Source of the DNA: Elusimicrobiaceae bacterium
Lineage (GTDB): Bacteria > Elusimicrobiota > Elusimicrobia > Elusimicrobiales > Elusimicrobiaceae
Assembly (NCBI GenBank): GCA_017646765.1
Contig: JAGCMD010000074.1
Span: 5,627 to 69,626 of the forward strand
Length of the DNA stretch: 64,000 nucleotides
Reading direction: 5' to 3'
Below the pieces are notes generated by a model. It had not been told where the DNA came from. It did not search any database and saw only the letters and a list, made by a program, of their open reading frames with translations. Made by a program: the position numbers and the translations under genes. Positions 6,150 through 15,827 of the stretch are shown here, piece after piece (positions within the stretch are counted from its first letter, which is position 1; every line of letters begins with the position of its first letter).

Positions 6150-6532
6150 ATTTGCACACGAAACCTAAAACACAACGTTTTAGGTTTCGTTGCTTACAGA
6201 GGCAATCCTAAATTAAGTTTAAGATGACGCTCTTTTTTTGCGAGCTTGTGCGTACTTATAGAAGATAACAACTGCTGTTTAATTACAACATCTTATTTTT
6301 AAGGTGGCCTGCTTCCCCAAGACTAACTTTGCGTAAGTTTATATGATTTTTCAAAATCGCTTTTAGTTTGCGGGGCAAGTTGCCCGCATAGGCGTAGCGG
6401 TAGCTACGTCAAGGGCAAGGCACCGCAAAATAAACAGATTTTGGAAAATTGTATATCAGTAGCAAGTAACAAGGGCGCAAACGTAATGTTTGCACCCTTG
6501 TACGCGTTTATAGAAGATACCAACAGCCGTTA
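6150..6532. repeat. Mosaic of palindromic REP-like units between convergent genes
   Basis: Hairpin ACGAAACCTAAAA/TTTTAGGTTTCGT (6158-6190); long hairpin 6338-6457; hairpin 6468-6501; 36 bp direct repeat 6245-6280 vs 6497-6532 (28/36 identical). Confidence 0.75.
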
Positions 6533-7429
6533 TAACATTTTATTTTTCAAACGGCTGGCGATATTATCCAGCTCATCCAACGAGTGATAATGAATGACCA
6601 GCGTACCTTTCTTCATATTCTTGCCGTATTTCACTTCTACTTTGGTGCCCAGGGCAACTTGTAGGTCGTTTTCAAAACTTGCTACTTCCGTCGGTTTAGC
6701 CCCTTTAGCAGCCTTTTTGGAAGGCGCCATCAACGCGCGGGCGGCATCTTCGGCTTGCCGTACCGACATTTTGCTGTTTTTTAATTTCTTAAAAAGTTGC
6801 TCCCGTTTGGCCGGGTCCGACACCATTAAAAGCGCGCGGCCGTGCCCTTCGGTAAGCGTGCCTTCCTGCAGCGCATCTTGGATATGCGGTTCTAATTCAA
6901 GCAAGCGAAGCGCGTTGGAAATAGCCGCTTTGGACTTGCCGCAATAAGACGCTAAATCCGTCTGCGTGATATAAAACTTATTCATTAAATTGCGGTACCC
7001 GAGCGCGGTTTCTATGGGGTTTAAATCTTCGCGTTGGATGTTCTCAATTAACGCCAACGCGCACATTTCTTGGTCGCCCAAATGTTTGTGGACAATGGCA
7101 TCAATTTCCGTTAAGCCGGCAAGTTGCGTGGCGCGAAAACGCCGTTCTCCGACGACAATTTCGTATTTATCCAGCCCGGCATCATACACTACGACTATCG
7201 GTTGAGTCAACCCATGCTCTTTAATAGATTGCGCTAATTCTTGCAATTTTTCCTCGTCAAAAACGCGGCGCGGCTGAAAACGGTTGGGTACAATTTTGCT
7301 TACCGCAATACGGGAAACGACCGTCCCCGTCGGTGCGGCGGCCGTAACCTCCTGCGTTGTCATATTGGAAATTTCTTGCGTTTGTTTAATCAGGGCATCT
7401 AACCCTCTTCCTAAAGCCTGTCTAACCAT
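6530..7429 (-). CDS. parB: Chromosome partitioning CTPase ParB
   Basis: N-terminal LGRGLDALI peptide, PNRFQPR, GERRFRA CTPase motif, HTH domain, C-terminal dimerisation domain. Confidence 0.96.
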   Translation of the reverse strand: MVRQALGRGLDALIKQTQEISNMTTQEVTAAAPTGTVVSRIAVSKIVPNRFQPRRVFDEEKLQELAQSIKEHGLTQPIVVVYDAGLDKYEIVVGERRFRATQLAGLTEIDAIVHKHLGDQEMCALALIENIQREDLNPIETALGYRNLMNKFYITQTDLASYCGKSKAAISNALRLLELEPHIQDALQEGTLTEGHGRALLMVSDPAKREQLFKKLKNSKMSVRQAEDAARALMAPSKKAAKGAKPTEVASFENDLQVALGTKVEVKYGKNMKKGTLVIHYHSLDELDNIASRLKNKML

Positions 7430-7430
7430 A

Positions 7431-8264
7431 TCAGCCTCCGAAATCGTAATTAACGGCGCGTTCGCCGGTCATTTGGAAATTATGATAATCTTCTACATTA
7501 GCTCCGCGGCGGCCCAAAAATTCTATAGCCAGTTGCATATAGGCGTTGGCTCCGCGGCAAGCCGGGTCGTAATCAAAAATAGATTGCCCGAAGCTCGGCG
7601 CTTCGGCTAAACGGATATTACGCGGAATCGGCGTTTTATATACTTGATCACCGAAAAAGCGGCTTACTTCACCCAATACCTGTTTGGATAAATTCATGCG
7701 GGAGTCAAACATAGTAAGCACGCCGCCGTCCATCTTTAATTGGGGATGTAGAAATTGTTTTATTTTGGCTACCGTGCTGATAAAATGAGCTAATCCTTCC
7801 ATGGCATAGTATTCGCACTGGACCGGGGTAATAACGCTGTCGGCAGCCATCATAGCGTTTAAGGTAAGCAACCCCAAAGAAGGCGGACAATCTATAATAA
7901 TGTACTTATACATAGCGCGTAGCGGCTCTAACACTTCTTTTAACATATTCTCGCGGCCGCGTACATTAACAAGTTCTGTTTCCGCGCCCGCTAAATTTTT
8001 ACAGGCCGGGATAACATCTAAAAACTCATTGGAAGTCTGGCGGATCACTTGCCCGAAGGCGGCGGCTTTTATCAAAAAATGATAAACAGATTTTCCCCCC
8101 TCTTCCACGGTCACGCCTAAGCCGGAGCCGGCATTTCCCTGCGGGTCAAAATCAATTAGCAACACTTCTTGGTTTAAGCAAGCCAGCGCGTATGACAAAT
8201 TGATAGAAGTAGTTGTCTTTCCTACGCCGCCTTTTTGGTTAGCAACCACTACAATTTCTCCCAT
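7431..8264 (-). CDS. parA: Chromosome partitioning ATPase ParA/Soj
   Basis: Deviant Walker A KGGVGKTT, DFDPQGNA, IDCPPSLG, IPRNIRLAEAPSFG. Confidence 0.96.
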   Translation of the reverse strand: MGEIVVVANQKGGVGKTTTSINLSYALACLNQEVLLIDFDPQGNAGSGLGVTVEEGGKSVYHFLIKAAAFGQVIRQTSNEFLDVIPACKNLAGAETELVNVRGRENMLKEVLEPLRAMYKYIIIDCPPSLGLLTLNAMMAADSVITPVQCEYYAMEGLAHFISTVAKIKQFLHPQLKMDGGVLTMFDSRMNLSKQVLGEVSRFFGDQVYKTPIPRNIRLAEAPSFGQSIFDYDPACRGANAYMQLAIEFLGRRGANVEDYHNFQMTGERAVNYDFGG

Positions 8265-8323
8265 AATTCCTCCGAACTAAAGTATATATTTATTAAACAT
8301 TATTTAATATAAAAAATCAATGT

Positions 8324-8339
8324 GTTTTCACGTGAAAAT
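8324..8339. promoter_or_regulatory. Candidate parS site 1 (variant)
   Basis: GTTTTCACGTGAAAAT, 14 bp perfect core palindrome, just upstream of parA. Confidence 0.7.
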
Positions 8340-9310
8340 TATTTGACCGTTCCCATACGGCTCGGCGGCCAGTGAATTATCCACGCTTTACCTTTGATGT
8401 TTTTTTCCGGCACCGGACCCCAAAATCGGGAATCGCACGAATTATCCCGGTTATCCCCCATCGCAAAATAAGTTTTCTCCGGTACCGTAACCGGGCCAAA
8501 TTGGTCGCGCAGAAACATCCCCAATACGTGTTCCAATTCATGCTTTTCCCATAATTGTTGGTAATTGTCTGCCAGTACTTCCGGAACCTCTTTTTTATCA
8601 TAATGAGCACGTTGTACATCATCAAATTTTTCGTAAGGTTGCAATGGGGCTAATTCTCCGTTTACATAGGCCCGGGAATCTTTTACTTCCACCGTATCAC
8701 CGGGCAAGGCAATTACGCGCTTAACAAAATCACGCTTATATTGGCTGCCGCCGCAATTTTGTTGTTCGCGGGATTCAGCCGGGAATTCAAATATAATAAT
8801 ATCCCCCCGCTTAATGGGTTTAGCCCAAAGGCGCTTTTGTGTAAAAGGAATTTTTAAACCGTAGGCCATTTTATTTACAAACAAGTGGTCGCCTTCCAAA
8901 AGAGTATCCCGCATAGAGGCGGAGGGAATTTTGAAAGCCTGTAGAAAGAAAAACATAACAATAGAAGCCACAAATCCGGCAAAATAAACGGTATTACACC
9001 ACTCTAAAGCTGCTTTGATAAGCGGTTTTTGTCCTTCCTCATTTAAAGAGCGGTTTTTAAAGAAACTATATATAGTATACCCTAATATAGCCGCAGAGCC
9101 CAGTATAAATTTACCATAGGGGAAATCTCCCCCCGGCCCGCCGCTCATCACAAATAAAATTAAGTATAAGGCGGTATTTAGAATAAGTAGCAAATAAGCC
9201 GAGTGCCAATAGACAAAATGGGGCGCAAAATTTTTCTTATCCATTAGATAGCGGCTTATCTTATAAAAGACATACATAATACACGCTATGATAAACAATC
9301 GTAATTCCAT
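8339..9310 (-). CDS. lepB: Signal peptidase I with extended N-terminal membrane domain
   Basis: IPSASM catalytic Ser, DFVKRV catalytic Lys, MGDNRDNSCDSRFWG box. Confidence 0.93.
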   Translation of the reverse strand: MELRLFIIACIMYVFYKISRYLMDKKNFAPHFVYWHSAYLLLILNTALYLILFVMSGGPGGDFPYGKFILGSAAILGYTIYSFFKNRSLNEEGQKPLIKAALEWCNTVYFAGFVASIVMFFFLQAFKIPSASMRDTLLEGDHLFVNKMAYGLKIPFTQKRLWAKPIKRGDIIIFEFPAESREQQNCGGSQYKRDFVKRVIALPGDTVEVKDSRAYVNGELAPLQPYEKFDDVQRAHYDKKEVPEVLADNYQQLWEKHELEHVLGMFLRDQFGPVTVPEKTYFAMGDNRDNSCDSRFWGPVPEKNIKGKAWIIHWPPSRMGTVK

Positions 9311-9325
9311 ATATTCTCCTTTAGA

Positions 9326-10432
9326 TTAGTTTTCACGTGAAAACTCACCCGAAACCACCTGTTGATAAATTTGTTGATAATGTGTTAAATTGTCCGTTAT
9401 TTGAGATGCTTTTTCTAAGGAATTTTCTCCCATTTCTAAACGGGTACTCTCATTTTCAACCAATAGGTTTAAAAAGCAGCTGAGCAGTGTTATATCTTGG
9501 GGCTGAAAAACATACCCGTTTTTGCCATGTTCCACCCAATTAGGCATATCCCCTACATTACTAACTACACAAGGCAAACCGACTTGCAACGCTTCCAGCA
9601 AAGCCAACGGCAAGCTTTCCTCTAAGGAAGGCAAAACAAATACATCTGCCATATTCAAATAGGCGTTTACTTGACTTTGTTCCCCGGCTAAAATCACACA
9701 ATCTTTCATACCGCTTTGCCGGATATATCGTTCCATTTTAGCGCGCTCTTCCCCTTCCCCTACATATATTAAACGCACCTGCGGATGGCGCAACCAAACA
9801 TTGCGAAAAGCCTGTAATAATGTCATAGGGTCCTTAACTCCGGCCAGCCTTGCCACGCATATAAAAACAATAGTTTTCACGTGAAAACCATATCTGGCGC
9901 GTTCTTGTTCACGCAGGGTAATGTCTTTATAAAATTGAGTTTTATCTATACTGTTTGGCAATAAATAGACTTTATTCTTATCATATCGCTGATGTTTAAT
10001 AAGATAATCTGCTGTAGATAAAGACTCCGCCACGGTTAGTGTATCTTGAACTTTTAAAAAACGATCCAATAAACGTAGTAAAAATGGTTTTTTGGATAAA
10101 TCAAAATGAGGAGTAACTATTAGCTTCACTTTTGTTCCGGCACAAGCAAGGCGCGCGTATTCTATCGCGCGAAATAACATTGCATGGACTATATCCGGCT
10201 GAAAAGATTTTACTTCTTCCCGTATTTTTTGAATAACTTTTCCGGGCAATTTACTGTGAATGCTTTTTACTTCTATACCATTACGTTCCATTTCAACCGC
10301 TACATTTCCAAGCCGTTTAATACATAATACTTTTACTTGATTACCGGATTTAGATACGGCTTTCGTTAAAACAGAAAGCGCTTTTTCAGCTCCGCCGGTT
10401 TGCGTGGATGAAATGATATATAAAATCTTCAT
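9326..10432 (-). CDS. GT4 family glycosyltransferase
   Basis: GGAE N-terminal motif, VARLAGVKD, PSLEESLPLALLEAL. Confidence 0.9.
   Translation of the reverse strand: MKILYIISSTQTGGAEKALSVLTKAVSKSGNQVKVLCIKRLGNVAVEMERNGIEVKSIHSKLPGKVIQKIREEVKSFQPDIVHAMLFRAIEYARLACAGTKVKLIVTPHFDLSKKPFLLRLLDRFLKVQDTLTVAESLSTADYLIKHQRYDKNKVYLLPNSIDKTQFYKDITLREQERARYGFHVKTIVFICVARLAGVKDPMTLLQAFRNVWLRHPQVRLIYVGEGEERAKMERYIRQSGMKDCVILAGEQSQVNAYLNMADVFVLPSLEESLPLALLEALQVGLPCVVSNVGDMPNWVEHGKNGYVFQPQDITLLSCFLNLLVENESTRLEMGENSLEKASQITDNLTHYQQIYQQVVSGEFSREN
9328..9345. promoter_or_regulatory. Candidate parS site 2 (variant)
   Basis: AGTTTTCACGTGAAAACT, perfect 18 bp palindrome in the last codons of the glycosyltransferase. 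Confidence 0.75.
9873..9888. promoter_or_regulatory. Candidate parS site 3 (variant)
   Basis: GTTTTCACGTGAAAAC, perfect 16 bp palindrome inside the glycosyltransferase CDS. Confidence 0.75.
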
Positions 10433-10751: not shown

Positions 10752-11270
10752 TTAAAATTGATGCGTTGCCCCGGGGGGAACTTTACCTTTTATAACGTGA
10801 TGATAATACTCATAAGTAAGCGGCACGCCCTCGGTATTAAAAACGCCGGCGTCTTTTACCGCACCCACAAAAAGCGTGTGCGTTCCGACGTCAAGCGTAT
10901 GTTCTACTTGCGCTTCTAAATACGACAATGTATGCAAACTAATCAACGGGCATCCTAACTCCCCCGTCGTAAAAGGGGCCTTAGCAAACTTATCAAAATT
11001 GCGCCCGGTGCGAAAACCGAAATTTCCTATAAACGGTAAGGTGGCCTTTTGATCTAAAGGCATGGCCGCAAAACGACGCGTACGAAGTAAAATTTCGTGC
11101 GTGAAACTTTGTTTGTTGACGGAAATAGCTACCCGCGGAGGCTGAGCTGTCACTTGGAAAACGGTATTTAAAATCATACCGTTTTTCTGTTCTCCGTCTG
11201 CAACCGTCACAATATACAAGCCATATGTGATAAATTGCAACCCTTGGTTAATTTGTGCGCATGTCATCAT
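10752..11270 (-). CDS. Flavin reductase-like protein (Hrb N-terminal domain type)
   Basis: ITYGLYIVT, GFRTGRNFDKF and GTHTLFVG motifs; likely start ATGA-coupled to the fprA stop. Confidence 0.85.
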   Translation of the reverse strand: MMTCAQINQGLQFITYGLYIVTVADGEQKNGMILNTVFQVTAQPPRVAISVNKQSFTHEILLRTRRFAAMPLDQKATLPFIGNFGFRTGRNFDKFAKAPFTTGELGCPLISLHTLSYLEAQVEHTLDVGTHTLFVGAVKDAGVFNTEGVPLTYEYYHHVIKGKVPPGATHQF

Positions 11271-12466
11271 ACGTTCAATTTTGCTGTAATTTTCCGGCTG
11301 ATTTCTTCGCCCAGTGCACGGCAATTATTGAGTGCTTCTTCGTCGGGAACAAACGATGTTTTCAAAGCCGGCGTGGCCAGTTCTATTTGCATACTTTCCA
11401 GTGTACGCATCAAATCTTCTATGGGTGCGCCGTTCCAACCGTATGAGCCAAAAGCCGTTCCGATTAAATTCTTTTTACGCAGTCCTTTCAAATAACAAAT
11501 TACATCCGCCATTGACGGAAAAATCTGGCTGTTTAATACCGGCGTTCCAATCAGCAATGCTGCGCTGTCTAATAATTCCAACGCAACATCACTACGATGG
11601 CTATGGTGCATAGAAAGCAGTTTTACTTGCGTGCCGCCGGCGGTAAGCCCGTCGGCGATTTGGCGGGCCATTTTTTCGGTACTTCCCCACATAGAATCGT
11701 ACACAATAACGGCTTTATTCGTCGGACGTTGGGCGGCCCACTTGGCATACAAATTCACAATCTTCGTCGGATCCTTGCGCCAAATAAACCCGTGATCGGG
11801 GGCAATCATTTTGGGAGCAAGTCCCATTTTTTTAACTTGTTCTAAAAATCGCAGTACAATATCCGAGTACGGCAAAACGATATTGGCATAGTATTTTTCT
11901 GCTTCGGTCAACCAGATACGTTCGTCGTTCTCGTCGTCAAAAAGCCGGTTGGTAGCCAGGTGCATACCAAAAACATCGTTACTAAATAAAATGTTTTCTC
12001 TTTCCAGATAAGAAAACATGCTATCCGGCCAATGCAGCATACGCGCTTCCACAAACGAAATGGTATCATCGCCCACATCAATACGGTCGCCGGTTTTGAC
12101 AACCTTAAATTTCAAATCTTTGTGTAAGTGCCCCATTAAATCTTTTAATCCCATGGCCGACACATATACTTCTTCGGGATTAACCGTTTTTACGGTTTCT
12201 ACCAAGGCACCGGAGTGGTCCAATTCCGAGTGATTGGAAATGATAATTTGAATTTTTGCCGGGTCTATGACGCTTTTAATACGCTCCATCATCTCATCGT
12301 AAAATTCGTGTTTTACCGTATCAATAAGCGTGGGTTTTTCGCTGAGAATCAAATAGGCGTTGTACGTCGTCCCCCGATGCGTGGCATACCCGTGAAAATC
12401 ACGTAAATTCCAATCAATAGCTCCTACCCAATATACTTTGTCCGAAATTTTGACCGCCTTCATCAT
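11267..12466 (-). CDS. fprA: Flavodiiron protein (FprA/Roo type O2/NO reductase)
   Basis: HSELDHSG, HWPD, PDHG di-iron ligands plus flavodoxin domain YDSMWGSTE. Confidence 0.95.
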   Translation of the reverse strand: MMKAVKISDKVYWVGAIDWNLRDFHGYATHRGTTYNAYLILSEKPTLIDTVKHEFYDEMMERIKSVIDPAKIQIIISNHSELDHSGALVETVKTVNPEEVYVSAMGLKDLMGHLHKDLKFKVVKTGDRIDVGDDTISFVEARMLHWPDSMFSYLERENILFSNDVFGMHLATNRLFDDENDERIWLTEAEKYYANIVLPYSDIVLRFLEQVKKMGLAPKMIAPDHGFIWRKDPTKIVNLYAKWAAQRPTNKAVIVYDSMWGSTEKMARQIADGLTAGGTQVKLLSMHHSHRSDVALELLDSAALLIGTPVLNSQIFPSMADVICYLKGLRKKNLIGTAFGSYGWNGAPIEDLMRTLESMQIELATPALKTSFVPDEEALNNCRALGEEISRKITAKLNV

Positions 12467-12484
12467 ACGTAGAAAACTCCCTTT

Positions 12485-12871
12485 TTAATCTTCCGCTTGC
12501 CACAACCCGTGTAAATTACAATATTCACGCGCAGTTACTTTTTCGGCCTTTGTTTCAAAAACAGCTTCCGGTTTATCTCCGGGATTTAAGTGTTTACGTT
12601 GTACACGACCGCAGGGTAAACATAATAATTCAATCCACTCAATATGGTGCTCGGCGGTAGAAGGATGTTCTACACTCCCTACCTTTACCTTGTAACCACC
12701 CGGCACTTTTTCAATAACCGGCACGTGTTTTTCAGCAGCACCGTCGCTTGTTCCGGCAATAGCCCGCTTCATAGGCTGCCCGCAGCATACCAACTCTCCC
12801 ACGGCAGCGTGTACCACTTCTATACGGTTGCCGCAAACCGGACAAACAAAAATATCATGTAATTGTGTCAT
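12485..12871 (-). CDS. dfx: Desulfoferrodoxin (superoxide reductase)
   Basis: CPVCGN..CCG centre I; EKHVP, HHIEWI and CNLHGLW centre II. Confidence 0.95.
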
Positions 12872-13180: not shown

Positions 13181-14548
13181 GTGCAGAATTTAGAGAAGTA
13201 CCCTCAACTCATCTCTGTTTTTCAAGATATTGAAAATATTATAGGCAAAGATGCATACGATATGTGGTTACGTCCGGCAGAAATAGATTTTGCCGGAAAT
13301 ACGCTTACTATTTTTTTACCCAATCAATTTTGGGGAAATACCATCCGCGAACGATATGAACACACCATTAAAGATGCTTTTTTGAAACATTTAGGCGCGG
13401 ATATTGAACTGGTTTATCAAATTGATGTAAAAACCCCTACCCCAACTGTGACGTCAGCACAAGATGTGTTGCCCGTTCAACCGGTGCAACCGGCGGCTCC
13501 TAAAATCAATCCTTTTGCGTCGCGGTTAAATTCATCATTTACGTTTGAAAATTTTATTGAATCTCCTTCAAACCGTTTTGCATATAAAGCCGCTCAGGCT
13601 GCATCTAAAAAATTAGGCGCGCGGGAAAATAATCCTTTAGTTATTTATTCCTCGCCGGGACTTGGTAAAACCCACTTATTACACGCTATCGGTAACCAAA
13701 TTTTGAAAGACAACCCGTCGGCCAAAGTTCTGTATATGTCCGGTGAAGAGTTTGTAAGTGAATTTATTGACTCTTTACAAAATAAAGTACATGATAGCTT
13801 TCGTAAAAAATGCCGCACATTGGACTGTTTCTTAATGGATGATATTCAATTTGTATCCGGTAAAGAGGCTTGTTTACAAGAATTTTTTGACACATTTAAT
13901 GCCCTGTTTGCCAGTGGTAAACAAATTGTTTTATCGTCCGATAGAACACCCCAACAACTGGAGTGGAATGAGCGGCTTTCTTCACGGTTGTTATCGGGAA
14001 TTACAGCGGAAATTAAACGTCCGAATTTAGAAACCCGTATTGCTATTTTACGTCAAAAGCGTGATTCTATCAACTTTGATATTGGTGATGACGTGTTGGC
14101 GTTTATTGCCGAAGGCGTCCAAACCAATGTACGTGAACTGGAAGGTTCTTTATTTAGGTTAGTAGCCTATTGTAGTATGCACGGAGTAATCCCCTCTATT
14201 GCAATTGCCAGGGAAGTTTTAGCTGATATTTTAGTGTCTAACGATACATTTTCCATTAACGTAAACAGTATTAAAAAGATAGTAGGTAAACACTTTAGTA
14301 TAAAAATGGAAGATTTTAATTCTAAGCGTAAAACGCAGTCTGTTGCGTGGCCGCGCCAAATTGCTATGTTTTTAACTACCGAATTAACCGATTTATCGTT
14401 ACCGGAAATCGGACGGGAGTTTAACCGCGATCACAGCACGGTTGTTCATGCGCGGGATACTGTGAAGGAAAAAATAAACACAGACCCATTTTTTGCCGCT
14501 GAAATTAACCAAATTATTTTGGATATTAAAACTGTGGATAATAAATAA
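13181..14548 (+). CDS. dnaA: Chromosomal replication initiator DnaA
   Basis: GTG start; GLGKTHL Walker A, DDIQF, RLSSRL, domain [11 protein letters not shown]. Confidence 0.97.
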
Positions 14549-14717
14549 CAAACAGTGGATAACCGGCTGAAAGAAAAGAAAAAAAGGGGTATAAAATTTT
14601 TAACTGTGTATAATGTGCATATAAAAAGTGGGTTGTACACAGTTAGATTATAAAATTTATAGAGGATAACTCACATAATCCACACTATAAACAGGACATA
14701 ATACAGGAAATATAAAT
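14533..14717. other. Probable oriC (dnaA-dnaN intergenic DnaA-box cluster)
   Basis: TTATCCACA (minus, 14533-41), TTATCCACT (minus, 14554-62), TTATACACA (minus, 14605-13), ATATGCACA (minus, 14614-22), TTGTACACA (14633-41), TAATCCACA (14676-84); AT-rich; gene-strand bias switches near here. Confidence 0.75.
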
Positions 14718-15826
14718 ATGAAAATAAATATTACTAAGTCAGTACTTTTGGAAGGTATCCAAGTTATTTCGGCAGGGGTATCTGCCCGCACTACATTACC
14801 TATTCTGCATAATTTTTTATTAGAAGCTTATAAAGGTAAATTAAAGTTAGTCCGCACGGATATGGAAATGGCCACGGTGCACTTTATAAATGCAGAAGTA
14901 GAAGAAGAAGGTAGTATTACTATTCCGATGAAGGAATTTTCGGATATTATTAAAAATCTTCCTGACGATAAAGAAATCAATTTGACTTTAGATGAGAATA
15001 ATAAATTTCATATTAAATCCGGTAAAAGTAAATTTTGGGTAATGGGTACACCTAAATCGGAATATCCGGCTGTTCCCGAAGTGGCTAGTGAAAACACCGT
15101 AGAATTAGATCCCCTTGAACTACAAAAAATGATTGAAAAAACAGCGTTTTCTGCCTCTACACAAGAAACCCGCTATATTTTAAACGGTCTATTATGGAAT
15201 AATACAGCGGATAAATTTGAAATTGTAGCCACCGACGGCGGACGTTTAGCGATTGCCTCACACGCGGCTTTGCCCGGTTCTGCGCCTTTTAAAATTATTA
15301 TTCCTACTAAAATTTTAAATGAAATTTGCCGGTATATTTCTCTTATTAAACCGGGTAAAGACAGTAAAATAAATGTAAGTGTTTCGGCTAATCAAGTTAG
15401 TTTTGTTATAAACGAAACCACGTTTATTTCCCGTTTAATTGAAGGAAATTTTCCAAACTATAACCAAGTAATTCCGACGAAGAAAAACATCTCTTTTGAT
15501 GTTTTTTCTAAAGAATTATTAGCTTCTACCCGTCGTTCTGCGCTCTGCTCGGACGAGTTTGGAAGTGTTGTTAAATATCAACTGGAAAATAATACACTTA
15601 CAGTTACTTCTAATTCTCAAACGATGGAATTTTCAGATGAACTTCCGGTAGTATATACGGCAGAAAGTTTTAACGCTGCTTTTAACCCGCAATACATTAT
15701 TGATGTACTTAAAAACATTTCATCTGAAAAAGTATCTTTTTCGTTTGTAAATGCTTCGCAGCCGGTACTTGTAGAACCGGTTGGAGACGAAATGTTTAAG
15801 TATGTAATTATGCCGGTGAGAGTGTA

Positions 15827-15827
<1 letters not shown>
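14718..15827 (+). CDS. dnaN: DNA polymerase III beta sliding clamp
   Basis: TTLPILHN, ETRYILNG, VATDGGRL, RLIEGNFPNY, C-terminal YVIMPVRV. Confidence 0.97.

What the first reader, a model, noticed from the sequence alone, without database searches (positions are those of the whole stretch)
6880..9888. Divergent parABS: three GTTTTCACGTGAAAAC-type sites and a matching substitution in ParB's recognition helix
Seen: TTTTCACGTGAAAA occurs three times within 1.6 kb (8325-38, 9330-43, 9874-87) beside parAB and about 5-6 kb from the probable oriC; I saw no other copy in the window. Two copies are embedded in coding sequence. Canonical parS is TGTTTCACGTGAAACA; here the half-site GTTTTCAC has T where canonical has G at position 1. 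Established (from my recollection of the Caulobacter ParB/Noc structural work): specificity residues are R173/T179/A184/G201 for parS and Q/K/K/R for the Noc site, with R173 reading that G. This ParB aligns without gaps (GKSKAAISNALRLLE...TEGH) and has K/A/E/G; the Lys codon is at 6929-6931. Inference: a co-evolved, lineage-specific ParB-parS code that standard parS searches would miss.
Basis: partly seen in the sequence, partly recalled or inferred. Interest (0 to 1): 0.75.

Follow-up and report, generated by a model that had tools for sequence, protein, structure and literature searches.

The report
Variant chromosome centromere with matching ParB change
This gut Elusimicrobiaceae bacterium, its whole family and at least two other phyla use an altered chromosome-partition site (GTTTTCACGTGAAAAC instead of TGTTTCACGTGAAACA), and in every case the ParB residue that normally reads the changed base (Arg173) is replaced, which looks like a natural, repeated rewiring of one of the most conserved protein-DNA pairs in bacteria.

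Summary

- **Sites in the window:** there are three sites (8324-8339, 9329-9344, 9873-9888) directly upstream of parA-parB. They lie 4.7-6.3 kb from a DnaA-box cluster and GC-skew minimum at dnaA-dnaN. No canonical parS occurs in the 64 kb.
- **ParB:** it keeps all conserved DNA-contact anchors of Caulobacter ParB (Q162, G170, K171, S172, N178, R204, plus G201). It has Lys (codon 6929-6931) where Arg173 hydrogen-bonds guanine 1 of parS.
- **Family-wide pattern:** all 59 other Elusimicrobiaceae species loci have K173 and 2-4 copies of the variant site at the same place. Of 340 half-sites, 326 start GT and none has G at position 1.
- **Controls:** 101 other ParB loci, including one Endomicrobium locus, show only R173 and have G at position 1 in 199 of 202 half-sites.
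- **Other lineages:** a groundwater Elusimicrobia MAG (K173), Omnitrophota (K173, GTTTCCACGTGGAAAC) and Fimbriimonadales (V173, GTTTTCATGTGAAAAC) show the same GT outer dinucleotide.
- **Selection on the DNA:** gene-embedded copies are invariant at synonymous positions and are read in different frames in different species.

Two refinements apply: both outer positions change (TG to GT), and Val can replace Lys. Binding has not been tested. I rate it a new variant of a known kind.

The parts
8324..8339 (.). Variant parS site 1, GTTTTCACGTGAAAAT (15 of 16 palindromic). It is intergenic, 60 bp upstream of the parA start codon. Its last base overlaps the lepB stop codon.
   Evidence: a site at the homologous lepB-parA spacer is present in nearly all 59 relatives
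9329..9344 (.). Variant parS site 2, a perfect GTTTTCACGTGAAAAC. It encodes the last five codons (FSREN) of the glycosyltransferase, next to its stop codon.
   Evidence: the same DNA is read in another frame (SFHVKTN) or lies just past the stop codon in other species
9873..9888 (.). Variant parS site 3, a perfect GTTTTCACGTGAAAAC inside the glycosyltransferase gene (peptide GFHVKT). It was gained in the window's subclade.
   Evidence: all 16 nt are invariant in 10 species; third-codon identity is 100% in the site versus 49% in the flanks; species without the site have an unrelated variable loop there
6530..7429 (-). parB (299 aa) with ParB_N (including the GERRFRA box), HTH_ParB and ParB_C domains
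6896..6940 (-). Helix-turn-helix recognition segment GKSKAAISNALRLLE, equivalent to Caulobacter ParB residues 170-184
   Evidence: gapless alignments to Spo0J, ParB and Noc structures; anchor residues named in PMC7383237
6929..6931 (-). AAA codon for Lys at the position of Caulobacter Arg173, the residue that reads guanine 1 of canonical parS
   Evidence: K in all 59 relatives plus the window
6917..6919 (-). TCC codon for Ser at the position of Caulobacter Ala177, one helical turn from 173. It co-occurs with every non-Arg173 lineage.
7431..8264 (-). parA (277 aa), the Walker-type partition ATPase directly upstream of parB
14533..14684 (.). Cluster of four DnaA boxes in and next to the dnaA-dnaN spacer. 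With the GC-skew minimum, this marks the probable oriC.

Best explanation
This is a functional chromosomal ParABS partition system whose centromere and reader have changed together.

Shown:
- The three 16-bp palindromes upstream of parA-parB keep the 12 central bases of canonical parS and swap the outer dinucleotide of each half-site from TG to GT.
- ParB keeps every other conserved DNA-contact residue but carries Lys instead of Arg173, the residue that hydrogen-bonds guanine 1.
- This pairing is fixed across Elusimicrobiaceae and recurs, with Lys or Val, in other phyla.
- The sites are under selection as DNA.

Inferred:
- ParB dimers nucleate on these three sites about 5-6 kb from oriC.
- They then close as CTP-dependent clamps (the GERRxRA box is intact), spread, and are moved by ParA. 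They probably also load SMC, as in canonical systems.
- Site 1, 60 bp upstream of parA, may also autoregulate the operon.
- Without Arg173 the protein no longer needs, and probably no longer favours, G at position 1. The aliphatic part of Lys or Val at 173 would pack against the methyl group of thymine 1.
- The strongly conserved G at position 0 is read either by the Lys amine or, as the Val lineages suggest, by another contact not yet identified.
For: Window:
- The sites are real and non-random, and there is no canonical parS.
- The gene order is parA-parB-type, close to dnaA/dnaN, DnaA boxes and the skew minimum.
- ParB has all three Pfam domains.
- The K/A/E/G assignment comes from gapless alignment with conserved anchors.
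- R173 contacts G1, and R173 was invariable among parS binders in the published selection.

Elusimicrobiaceae:
- The window and all 59 other species loci have K173 and 2-4 variant sites.
- There are 171 sites in 1.04 Mb. All lie 0.9-3.1 kb upstream of parB, except one 1-mismatch copy just downstream of parB in L041. Position 0 is G in 328 of 342 half-sites, and position 1 is T in 339 of 342.

Controls:
- In 101 other ParB loci, every helix-turn-helix that could be read has R173, and 199 of 202 half-sites have G at position 1.
- One Endomicrobium locus from the same phylum has R173 and TGTTTCACGTGAAACA.

Other non-Arg lineages:
- A groundwater Elusimicrobia MAG with K173, 48% identity and different synteny has 2 copies of GTTTTCACGTGAAAAC.
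- Omnitrophota with K173 have GTTTCCACGTGGAAAC between gidA and parA near dnaA.
- Fimbriimonadales with V173 have GTTTTCATGTGAAAAC at the parB stop codon.
- These clades each have 100% bootstrap support and are not joined to each other in an NJ tree.
- R173 with S177 still goes with G1.

DNA-level selection.
Against: - No binding, ChIP or genetic data exist for any of these proteins.
- Only 64 kb of this genome and about 20 kb per relative could be examined, so extra sites, including canonical ones elsewhere on the chromosome, cannot be excluded.
- Within environmental Elusimicrobiota, K and R forms are intermixed with weak tree support. The number of independent switches is therefore uncertain, and Elusimicrobiota versus Omnitrophota independence is not proven.
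- The Val173 lineages show that the Lys amine is not needed for a GT site, so the chemistry of T1 and G0 recognition is unresolved.
- One K173 contig (L085) carries hybrid sites, TGTTTCAC|GTGAAAAC and ATTTACAC|GTGAAAAC. This hints that K173 ParB may tolerate a canonical half-site.
- The nearest R173 relatives sit on contigs too short to show their parS.
Confidence: 0.8

Rival explanations
1. The sites are the parS of this ParB, but residue 173 is not what sets the GT preference. Under this view the substitution is a passenger, or only relaxes specificity. The real determinant would be Ser177 or residues outside the helix, and the protein may bind both canonical and variant sites.
For: - Val173 lineages have the same GT sites, so no specific Lys-base hydrogen bond is required.
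- S177 is present in 17 of 18 non-Arg173 ParBs against 16 of 142 Arg173 ParBs.
- A K173 contig carries a hybrid canonical/variant site.
- G at position 0 is conserved, yet residue 173 was only shown to read position 1.
Against: - R173+S177 loci keep G at position 1.
- Every non-Arg lineage examined that has sites shows T1, and every Arg lineage shows G1.
- Published selection found R173 indispensable for canonical parS binding.
Confidence: 0.15
2. The palindromes are not centromeres. They would be binding sites of another CACGTG-recognising regulator, or structural elements such as terminators, that merely happen to lie near parAB.
For: - In one subclade the palindrome extends to 24 bp (AAAAGTTTTCACGTGAAAACTTTT) and sits after stop codons, so it could also form a hairpin.
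- No binding data exist.
Against: - The central 12 of 16 bases are identical to canonical parS.
- The sites are found only next to parAB, in 60 Elusimicrobiaceae loci and in three other lineages with different neighbouring genes.
- No canonical parS is available to serve this ParB.
- Copies inside genes cannot be terminators.
- The terminator scan found nothing at the sites.
Confidence: 0.03
3. The protein is a Noc-like nucleoid-occlusion paralogue with its own site, rather than the partition ParB.
For: The best NCBIfam hit by score is the Noc model, and the top PDB sequence hits are Noc proteins.
Against: - The Noc score of 241.9 is below the 315 cut-off.
- It has K/A/E/G rather than Q/K/K/R.
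- The sites keep A6 (CACGTG) rather than the NBS CCCGGG.
- It is the only ParB homologue found in the window and it directly follows parA.
Confidence: 0.02

Closest known systems
Canonical chromosomal ParABS (B. subtilis Spo0J/Soj-parS; Caulobacter crescentus ParB-parS, PDB 6T1F/6S6H)
   Same: - parA-parB operon near oriC.
- ParB with ParB_N (GERRxRA), HTH and C-terminal dimerisation domains.
- A few 16-bp palindromic sites clustered by the operon, some of them inside genes.
- Central 12 bp TTTCACGTGAAA identical.
- Contact residues Q162, G170, K171, S172, N178, G201 and R204 conserved.
   Different: - The outer dinucleotide of each half-site is GT instead of TG.
- Arg173, reported as invariable in parS binders, is Lys here (Val in Fimbriimonadales).
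- Ala/Thr177 is Ser.
Noc-NBS of Bacillota (PDB 6Y93, 7NFU)
   Same: It is a natural re-specification of a ParB-family helix. The same residue 173 changes (R to Q) together with the same DNA position 1 (G to A).
   Different: - Noc arose by duplication and coexists with ParB. It also changes G201R with position 6 (A to C) and needs permissive Lys179/184.
- Here the single-copy partition ParB itself changed, position 6 and G201 are unchanged, residues 179/184 are A/E, and the new base is T with G moved to position 0.
Secondary-replicon ParB/parS pairs (Burkholderia cenocepacia chrII gTTTATGCGCATAAAc; Vibrio cholerae ParB2-parS2, the latter from my own knowledge)
   Same: These are ParB homologues with centromere sequences that are distinct from canonical parS and mutually non-cross-reacting.
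   Different: - Those are distant paralogues on secondary chromosomes or plasmids, with largely different sites.
- Here the primary-chromosome system differs by a minimal two-position change per half-site.

Membership tests
Chromosomal ParB (Spo0J) / ParABS | ParB_N domain with the CTP-binding GERRxRA box, an HTH_ParB domain and a ParB_C dimerisation domain | tested here: met
   Pfam PF02195, PF17762 and PF23552 all score above cut-off; TIGR00180 scores 179 bits against a cut-off of 58; VGERRFRA is present
Chromosomal ParB (Spo0J) / ParABS | Adjacent ParA Walker ATPase gene, with the operon close to oriC | tested here: met
   parA 7431-8264 lies directly upstream; dnaA, dnaN, DnaA boxes and the GC-skew minimum lie 5-7 kb away
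Chromosomal ParB (Spo0J) / ParABS | A few 16-bp palindromic parS sites clustered near the operon and origin | tested here: met
   Three sites lie within 1.6 kb and none elsewhere in 64 kb; the position is conserved in 59 relatives
Chromosomal ParB (Spo0J) / ParABS | Canonical parS consensus TGTTNCACGTGAAACA, with G at position 1 | tested here: not met
   No match within 3 mismatches; the sites are GTTTTCACGTGAAAAC; none of 340 family half-sites has G at position 1
Chromosomal ParB (Spo0J) / ParABS | Arg at position 173 of the recognition helix | tested here: not met
   Lys here; among the 150 nearest cluster representatives plus the query, 141 have R, 7 K, 1 V, 1 A and 1 Q
Chromosomal ParB (Spo0J) / ParABS | Specific binding to the sites, CTP-dependent spreading and ParA stimulation | not testable with these tools
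   Needs biochemistry or ChIP-seq
Noc (nucleoid occlusion protein) | Q173/K179/K184/R201 specificity residues and the NBS site TATTTCCCGGGAAATA | tested here: not met
   Residues are K/A/E/G; the sites keep CACGTG; the TIGR04285 score of 241.9 is below the 315 cut-off

The most novel reading that the evidence does not exclude
At least three phyla (Elusimicrobiota, Omnitrophota, Armatimonadota) may have converged independently on the same alternative centromere code. Under this reading, loss of Arg173 on a Ser177 background re-registers the half-site, so the conserved G is read one base pair further out by a contact absent from canonical ParB. The result would be a ParB-parS pair orthogonal to the near-universal one. 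That would insulate these chromosomes from mobile elements carrying canonical parS or ParB, and it would supply a ready-made second orthogonal ParB/parS labelling pair.
Probability: 0.3. Interest if true: 0.75.

Novelty: new variant of a known kind. Interest (0 to 1): 0.62.

Why it matters
Chromosomal ParB-parS is treated as nearly invariant across bacteria, and genome annotation and parS searches assume the TGTTNCACGTGAAACA consensus. That assumption misses whole lineages: Elusimicrobiaceae, some Omnitrophota and Fimbriimonadales.

The finding gives a natural, replicated counterpart to the laboratory ParB-to-Noc specificity map. The same residue (173) and the same base (position 1) move together, but inside the essential single-copy system rather than after duplication. 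This raises the question of how a centromere and its reader can change without a lethal intermediate. Hybrid sites and Ser177 are candidate stepping stones.

It predicts simple, testable swaps (K173R, R173K/V, A177S). It may also yield an orthogonal ParB/parS pair for DNA-locus labelling tools.

Tried and rejected
- **Canonical parS search in the window** (up to 3 mismatches): none found.
- **Literature:** full-text searches for the 14-mers TTTTCACGTGAAAA and TTTCCACGTGGAAA, for parS/ParB with Elusimicrobia, and for 'non-canonical/divergent parS' found no prior description.
- **Metagenome scan:** I used an alignment of Elusimicrobiota-like ParBs to fetch the nearest R173 relatives. That sample was useful as a control but not for bracketing the switch.
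- **Nearest R173 relatives** (P0124, P0125, P0127): their contigs are 1.5-4.7 kb, do not cover the region upstream of parA, and show no site.
- **P0121/P0271** (K173, 55% identity): the contigs are also too short.
- **P0160** (Omnitrophota): no DNA could be fetched; I replaced it with its relatives P0384 and P0346.
- **P0204** (A173): no parA neighbour and no site, so it was left aside as a probable orphan paralogue.
- **KD values for Caulobacter ParB on a T1 site** (their 'site8', tTTTTCACGTGAAAAa): these exist only as a figure heat map and could not be read from the text.
- **Promoter and terminator scans** around the sites gave nothing above shuffle expectation.
- **Structure prediction** was not run, because the tool cannot model DNA and the gapless alignment already fixes the residue positions.
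- **Rejected readings:** Noc-like function and a site for some other regulator (see the rival explanations).


Full report
**1. The observation**

The 14-mer TTTTCACGTGAAAA occurs three times in the window (8325, 9330, 9874), against zero in 100 shuffles. The full 16-mers are GTTTTCACGTGAAAAT (8324-8339) and two perfect GTTTTCACGTGAAAAC (9329-9344, 9873-9888). The 64 kb holds no other copy with fewer than 3 mismatches. It holds nothing within 3 mismatches of canonical TGTTTCACGTGAAACA.

The neighbouring genes are on the minus strand:
- parB, 6530-7429
- parA, 7431-8264
- signal peptidase I, 8339-9310
- a GT4 glycosyltransferase, 9326-10432

Further on lie oxygen-detoxification genes, dnaA (13181-14548) and dnaN (14718-15827). 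Four DnaA boxes cluster at 14533-14684, and the cumulative GC skew turns at about 12-16 kb. The sites are therefore 4.7-6.3 kb from the probable origin.

**2. The protein**

ParB has ParB_N, HTH_ParB and ParB_C domains and an intact GERRFRA box. Its helix-turn-helix aligns without gaps to Thermus, Helicobacter and Bacillus Spo0J and to Noc.

Jalal et al. 2020 (PMC7383237) name Q162, G170, K171, S172, N178 and R204 as conserved DNA contacts, with 173/179/184/201 as specificity positions. All six anchors are present here at the right spacing. That fixes K/A/E/G at 173/179/184/201. The Lys codon is AAA at 6929-6931.

The same paper states that R173 hydrogen-bonds guanine 1 of parS. It also states that parS-specific variants in a four-residue library had an invariable R173.

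**3. Family-wide pattern**

The protein belongs to gut Elusimicrobiaceae. A scan of one genome per species returned 59 Elusimicrobiaceae loci (69-97% identity) and 21 outgroups.

- All 59 have K173 and 2-4 copies of the variant site upstream of parA, in a conserved glycosyltransferase-lepB-parA-parB arrangement.
- In 1.04 Mb of these loci there are 171 sites. All lie 0.9-3.1 kb upstream of parB, except one 1-mismatch copy just downstream of parB in L041.
- Per half-site, position 0 is G in 328 of 342 and position 1 is T in 339 of 342.
- The change is therefore TG to GT, not G to T alone. Equivalently, the G sits one base pair further from the dyad.
- The outgroups, including one Endomicrobium locus from the same phylum, have R173 and TGTTTCACGTGAAACA.
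- An unselected sample of 80 metagenomic ParB loci shows only R173 wherever the helix could be read, and G at position 1 in 134 of 136 half-sites.

**4. Selection acts on the DNA**

The internal glycosyltransferase site is present in 10 species of the window's subclade. All 16 nt are invariant there. Identity at third-codon positions is 100% inside the site and 49% in the flanks. Species lacking the site have an unrelated, variable loop at that position, such as GYTPQN or HFAKDD.

The site at the 3' end of the same gene is translated as ...EFSREN* in the window and as ...NSFHVKTN* in other species. In still others it lies just beyond the stop codon.

**5. Beyond the family**

Among the 150 nearest 50%-identity cluster representatives plus the query, residue 173 is R in 141, K in 7 (including the query), and V, A and Q in one each. 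I followed the exceptions to their contigs:

| Lineage | Residue 173 | Sites found |
|---|---|---|
| Groundwater 'Elusimicrobia bacterium' MAG (48% identity, different neighbours) | K | 2 copies of GTTTTCACGTGAAAAC upstream of parA |
| Unnamed contig L085 | K | Hybrid sites TGTTTCAC\|GTGAAAAC and ATTTACAC\|GTGAAAAC |
| Omnitrophota (GKDKSSISN conserved in about 70 clusters) | K | GTTTCCACGTGGAAAC between gidA and parA, about 5 kb from dnaA, in two species |
| Fimbriimonadales, Armatimonadota (GKSVPAISN; mostly V, occasionally L, A, T or Q) | V | GTTTTCATGTGAAAAC at the parB stop codon, in two species |

In a bootstrapped NJ tree the Elusimicrobiaceae, Omnitrophota and Fimbriimonadales clades each have 100% support and are not united with one another. 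Deeper nodes are unresolved, and K and R forms intermix among environmental Elusimicrobiota-like sequences.

So the association 'no Arg173 goes with GT; Arg173 goes with xG' is replicated. The exact number of independent events is uncertain.

**6. A second co-varying residue**

Ser at position 177, one helical turn from 173, occurs in 17 of 18 non-Arg173 proteins but only 16 of 142 Arg173 proteins. The nearest R173 relatives also have S177. Two R173+S177 loci (L158, L165) keep G at position 1. S177 therefore looks like a background or permissive state rather than the switch itself.

**7. Mechanism**

Shown: the sequence facts above.

Established (PMC7383237): R173 reads G1, and changing 173 changes the preference at position 1 (R to Q gives A1 in Noc).

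Inferred:
- This ParB nucleates on the three GT sites and then behaves as a normal CTP-gated clamp with ParA.
- Without the Arg guanidinium, G1 is no longer favoured.
- T1 is probably recognised through its methyl group by the aliphatic side chain, since K, V, L, A or T all occur at 173 in GT lineages.
The Lys amine could reach it, but the Val lineages keep G0 too.
- Whether K173 ParB rejects canonical parS is untested. The hybrid sites in L085 argue for some tolerance.

**8. Comparison and novelty**

The system works like canonical ParABS and passes every membership test except the two that define the recognition pair: the consensus parS and R173. It is not Noc. It scores below the model cut-off, has G201, keeps A6 in the site, is single-copy in the window, and follows parA.

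The closest conceptual parallel is the ParB-to-Noc switch at the same residue and base. Here, though, the change sits in the partition system itself.

Reviews list only G1-containing chromosomal parS. I found no paper containing these variant sequences and no description of them. I classify the finding as a new variant of a known kind.

**9. Limits**

- There are no experimental data.
- Only local DNA could be examined for each genome.
- The nearest R173 relatives lack usable context.
- The tree is a simple NJ tree.

Noticed in passing
L040, L043, L046, L048-L058 (about 0.9-2 kb upstream of parB in each locus): In the more divergent Elusimicrobiaceae subclade the site is embedded in a 24-bp perfect palindrome, AAAAGTTTTCACGTGAAAACTTTT. 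It often sits just after stop codons. This could mean extra ParB contacts or a dual role as a hairpin or terminator.
   Followed up: no
window 6917-6919 (Ser codon); alignment of 160 ParBs: Ser at Caulobacter position 177 accompanies every K/V/A173 ParB (17 of 18) but only 11% of R173 ParBs. R173+S177 loci (L158, L165) still have G at parS position 1.
   Followed up: partly
L085:2122-2137 and 2446-2461: A K173 ParB contig of unknown taxon has hybrid sites: ATTTACACGTGAAAAC upstream of parA and TGTTTCACGTGAAAAC inside parA. Each pairs one variant half-site with a canonical or degenerate one. It may be an evolutionary intermediate.
   Followed up: partly
L092:10001-10987: A ParB homologue with Ala at 173 and Gln instead of His202 has no adjacent parA and no parS-like site within 15 kb. 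It may be an orphan ParB-like paralogue.
   Followed up: no
L010, L011, L020: The record titles assign these contigs to Muribaculaceae, Acutalibacteraceae and Spirochaetes MAGs. They nevertheless carry parAB 86-87% identical to the window, with the Elusimicrobiaceae synteny and variant parS. They are probably mis-binned or mislabelled.
   Followed up: no
L149, L153, L162 (also L128, L134, L139, L154, L156, L167): ParB loci with the helix GKKR[TA]T[IV]ANYLRLLKL show no TTCACGTGAA core within the DNA held, which is up to 10 kb on each side. I guess these loci are Bacteroidota, but that was not checked. Their parS may lie elsewhere or differ.
   Followed up: no
window 10752-12871: Three oxygen or nitric-oxide detoxification genes lie between the parS cluster and dnaA: a flavin reductase, an FprA-type flavodiiron protein and desulfoferrodoxin. 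This fits an anaerobic gut organism.
   Followed up: no
window 14533-14684: Four DnaA boxes (one perfect TTATCCACA) lie in and next to the dnaA-dnaN spacer rather than upstream of dnaA. This suggests oriC lies between dnaA and dnaN.
   Followed up: partly
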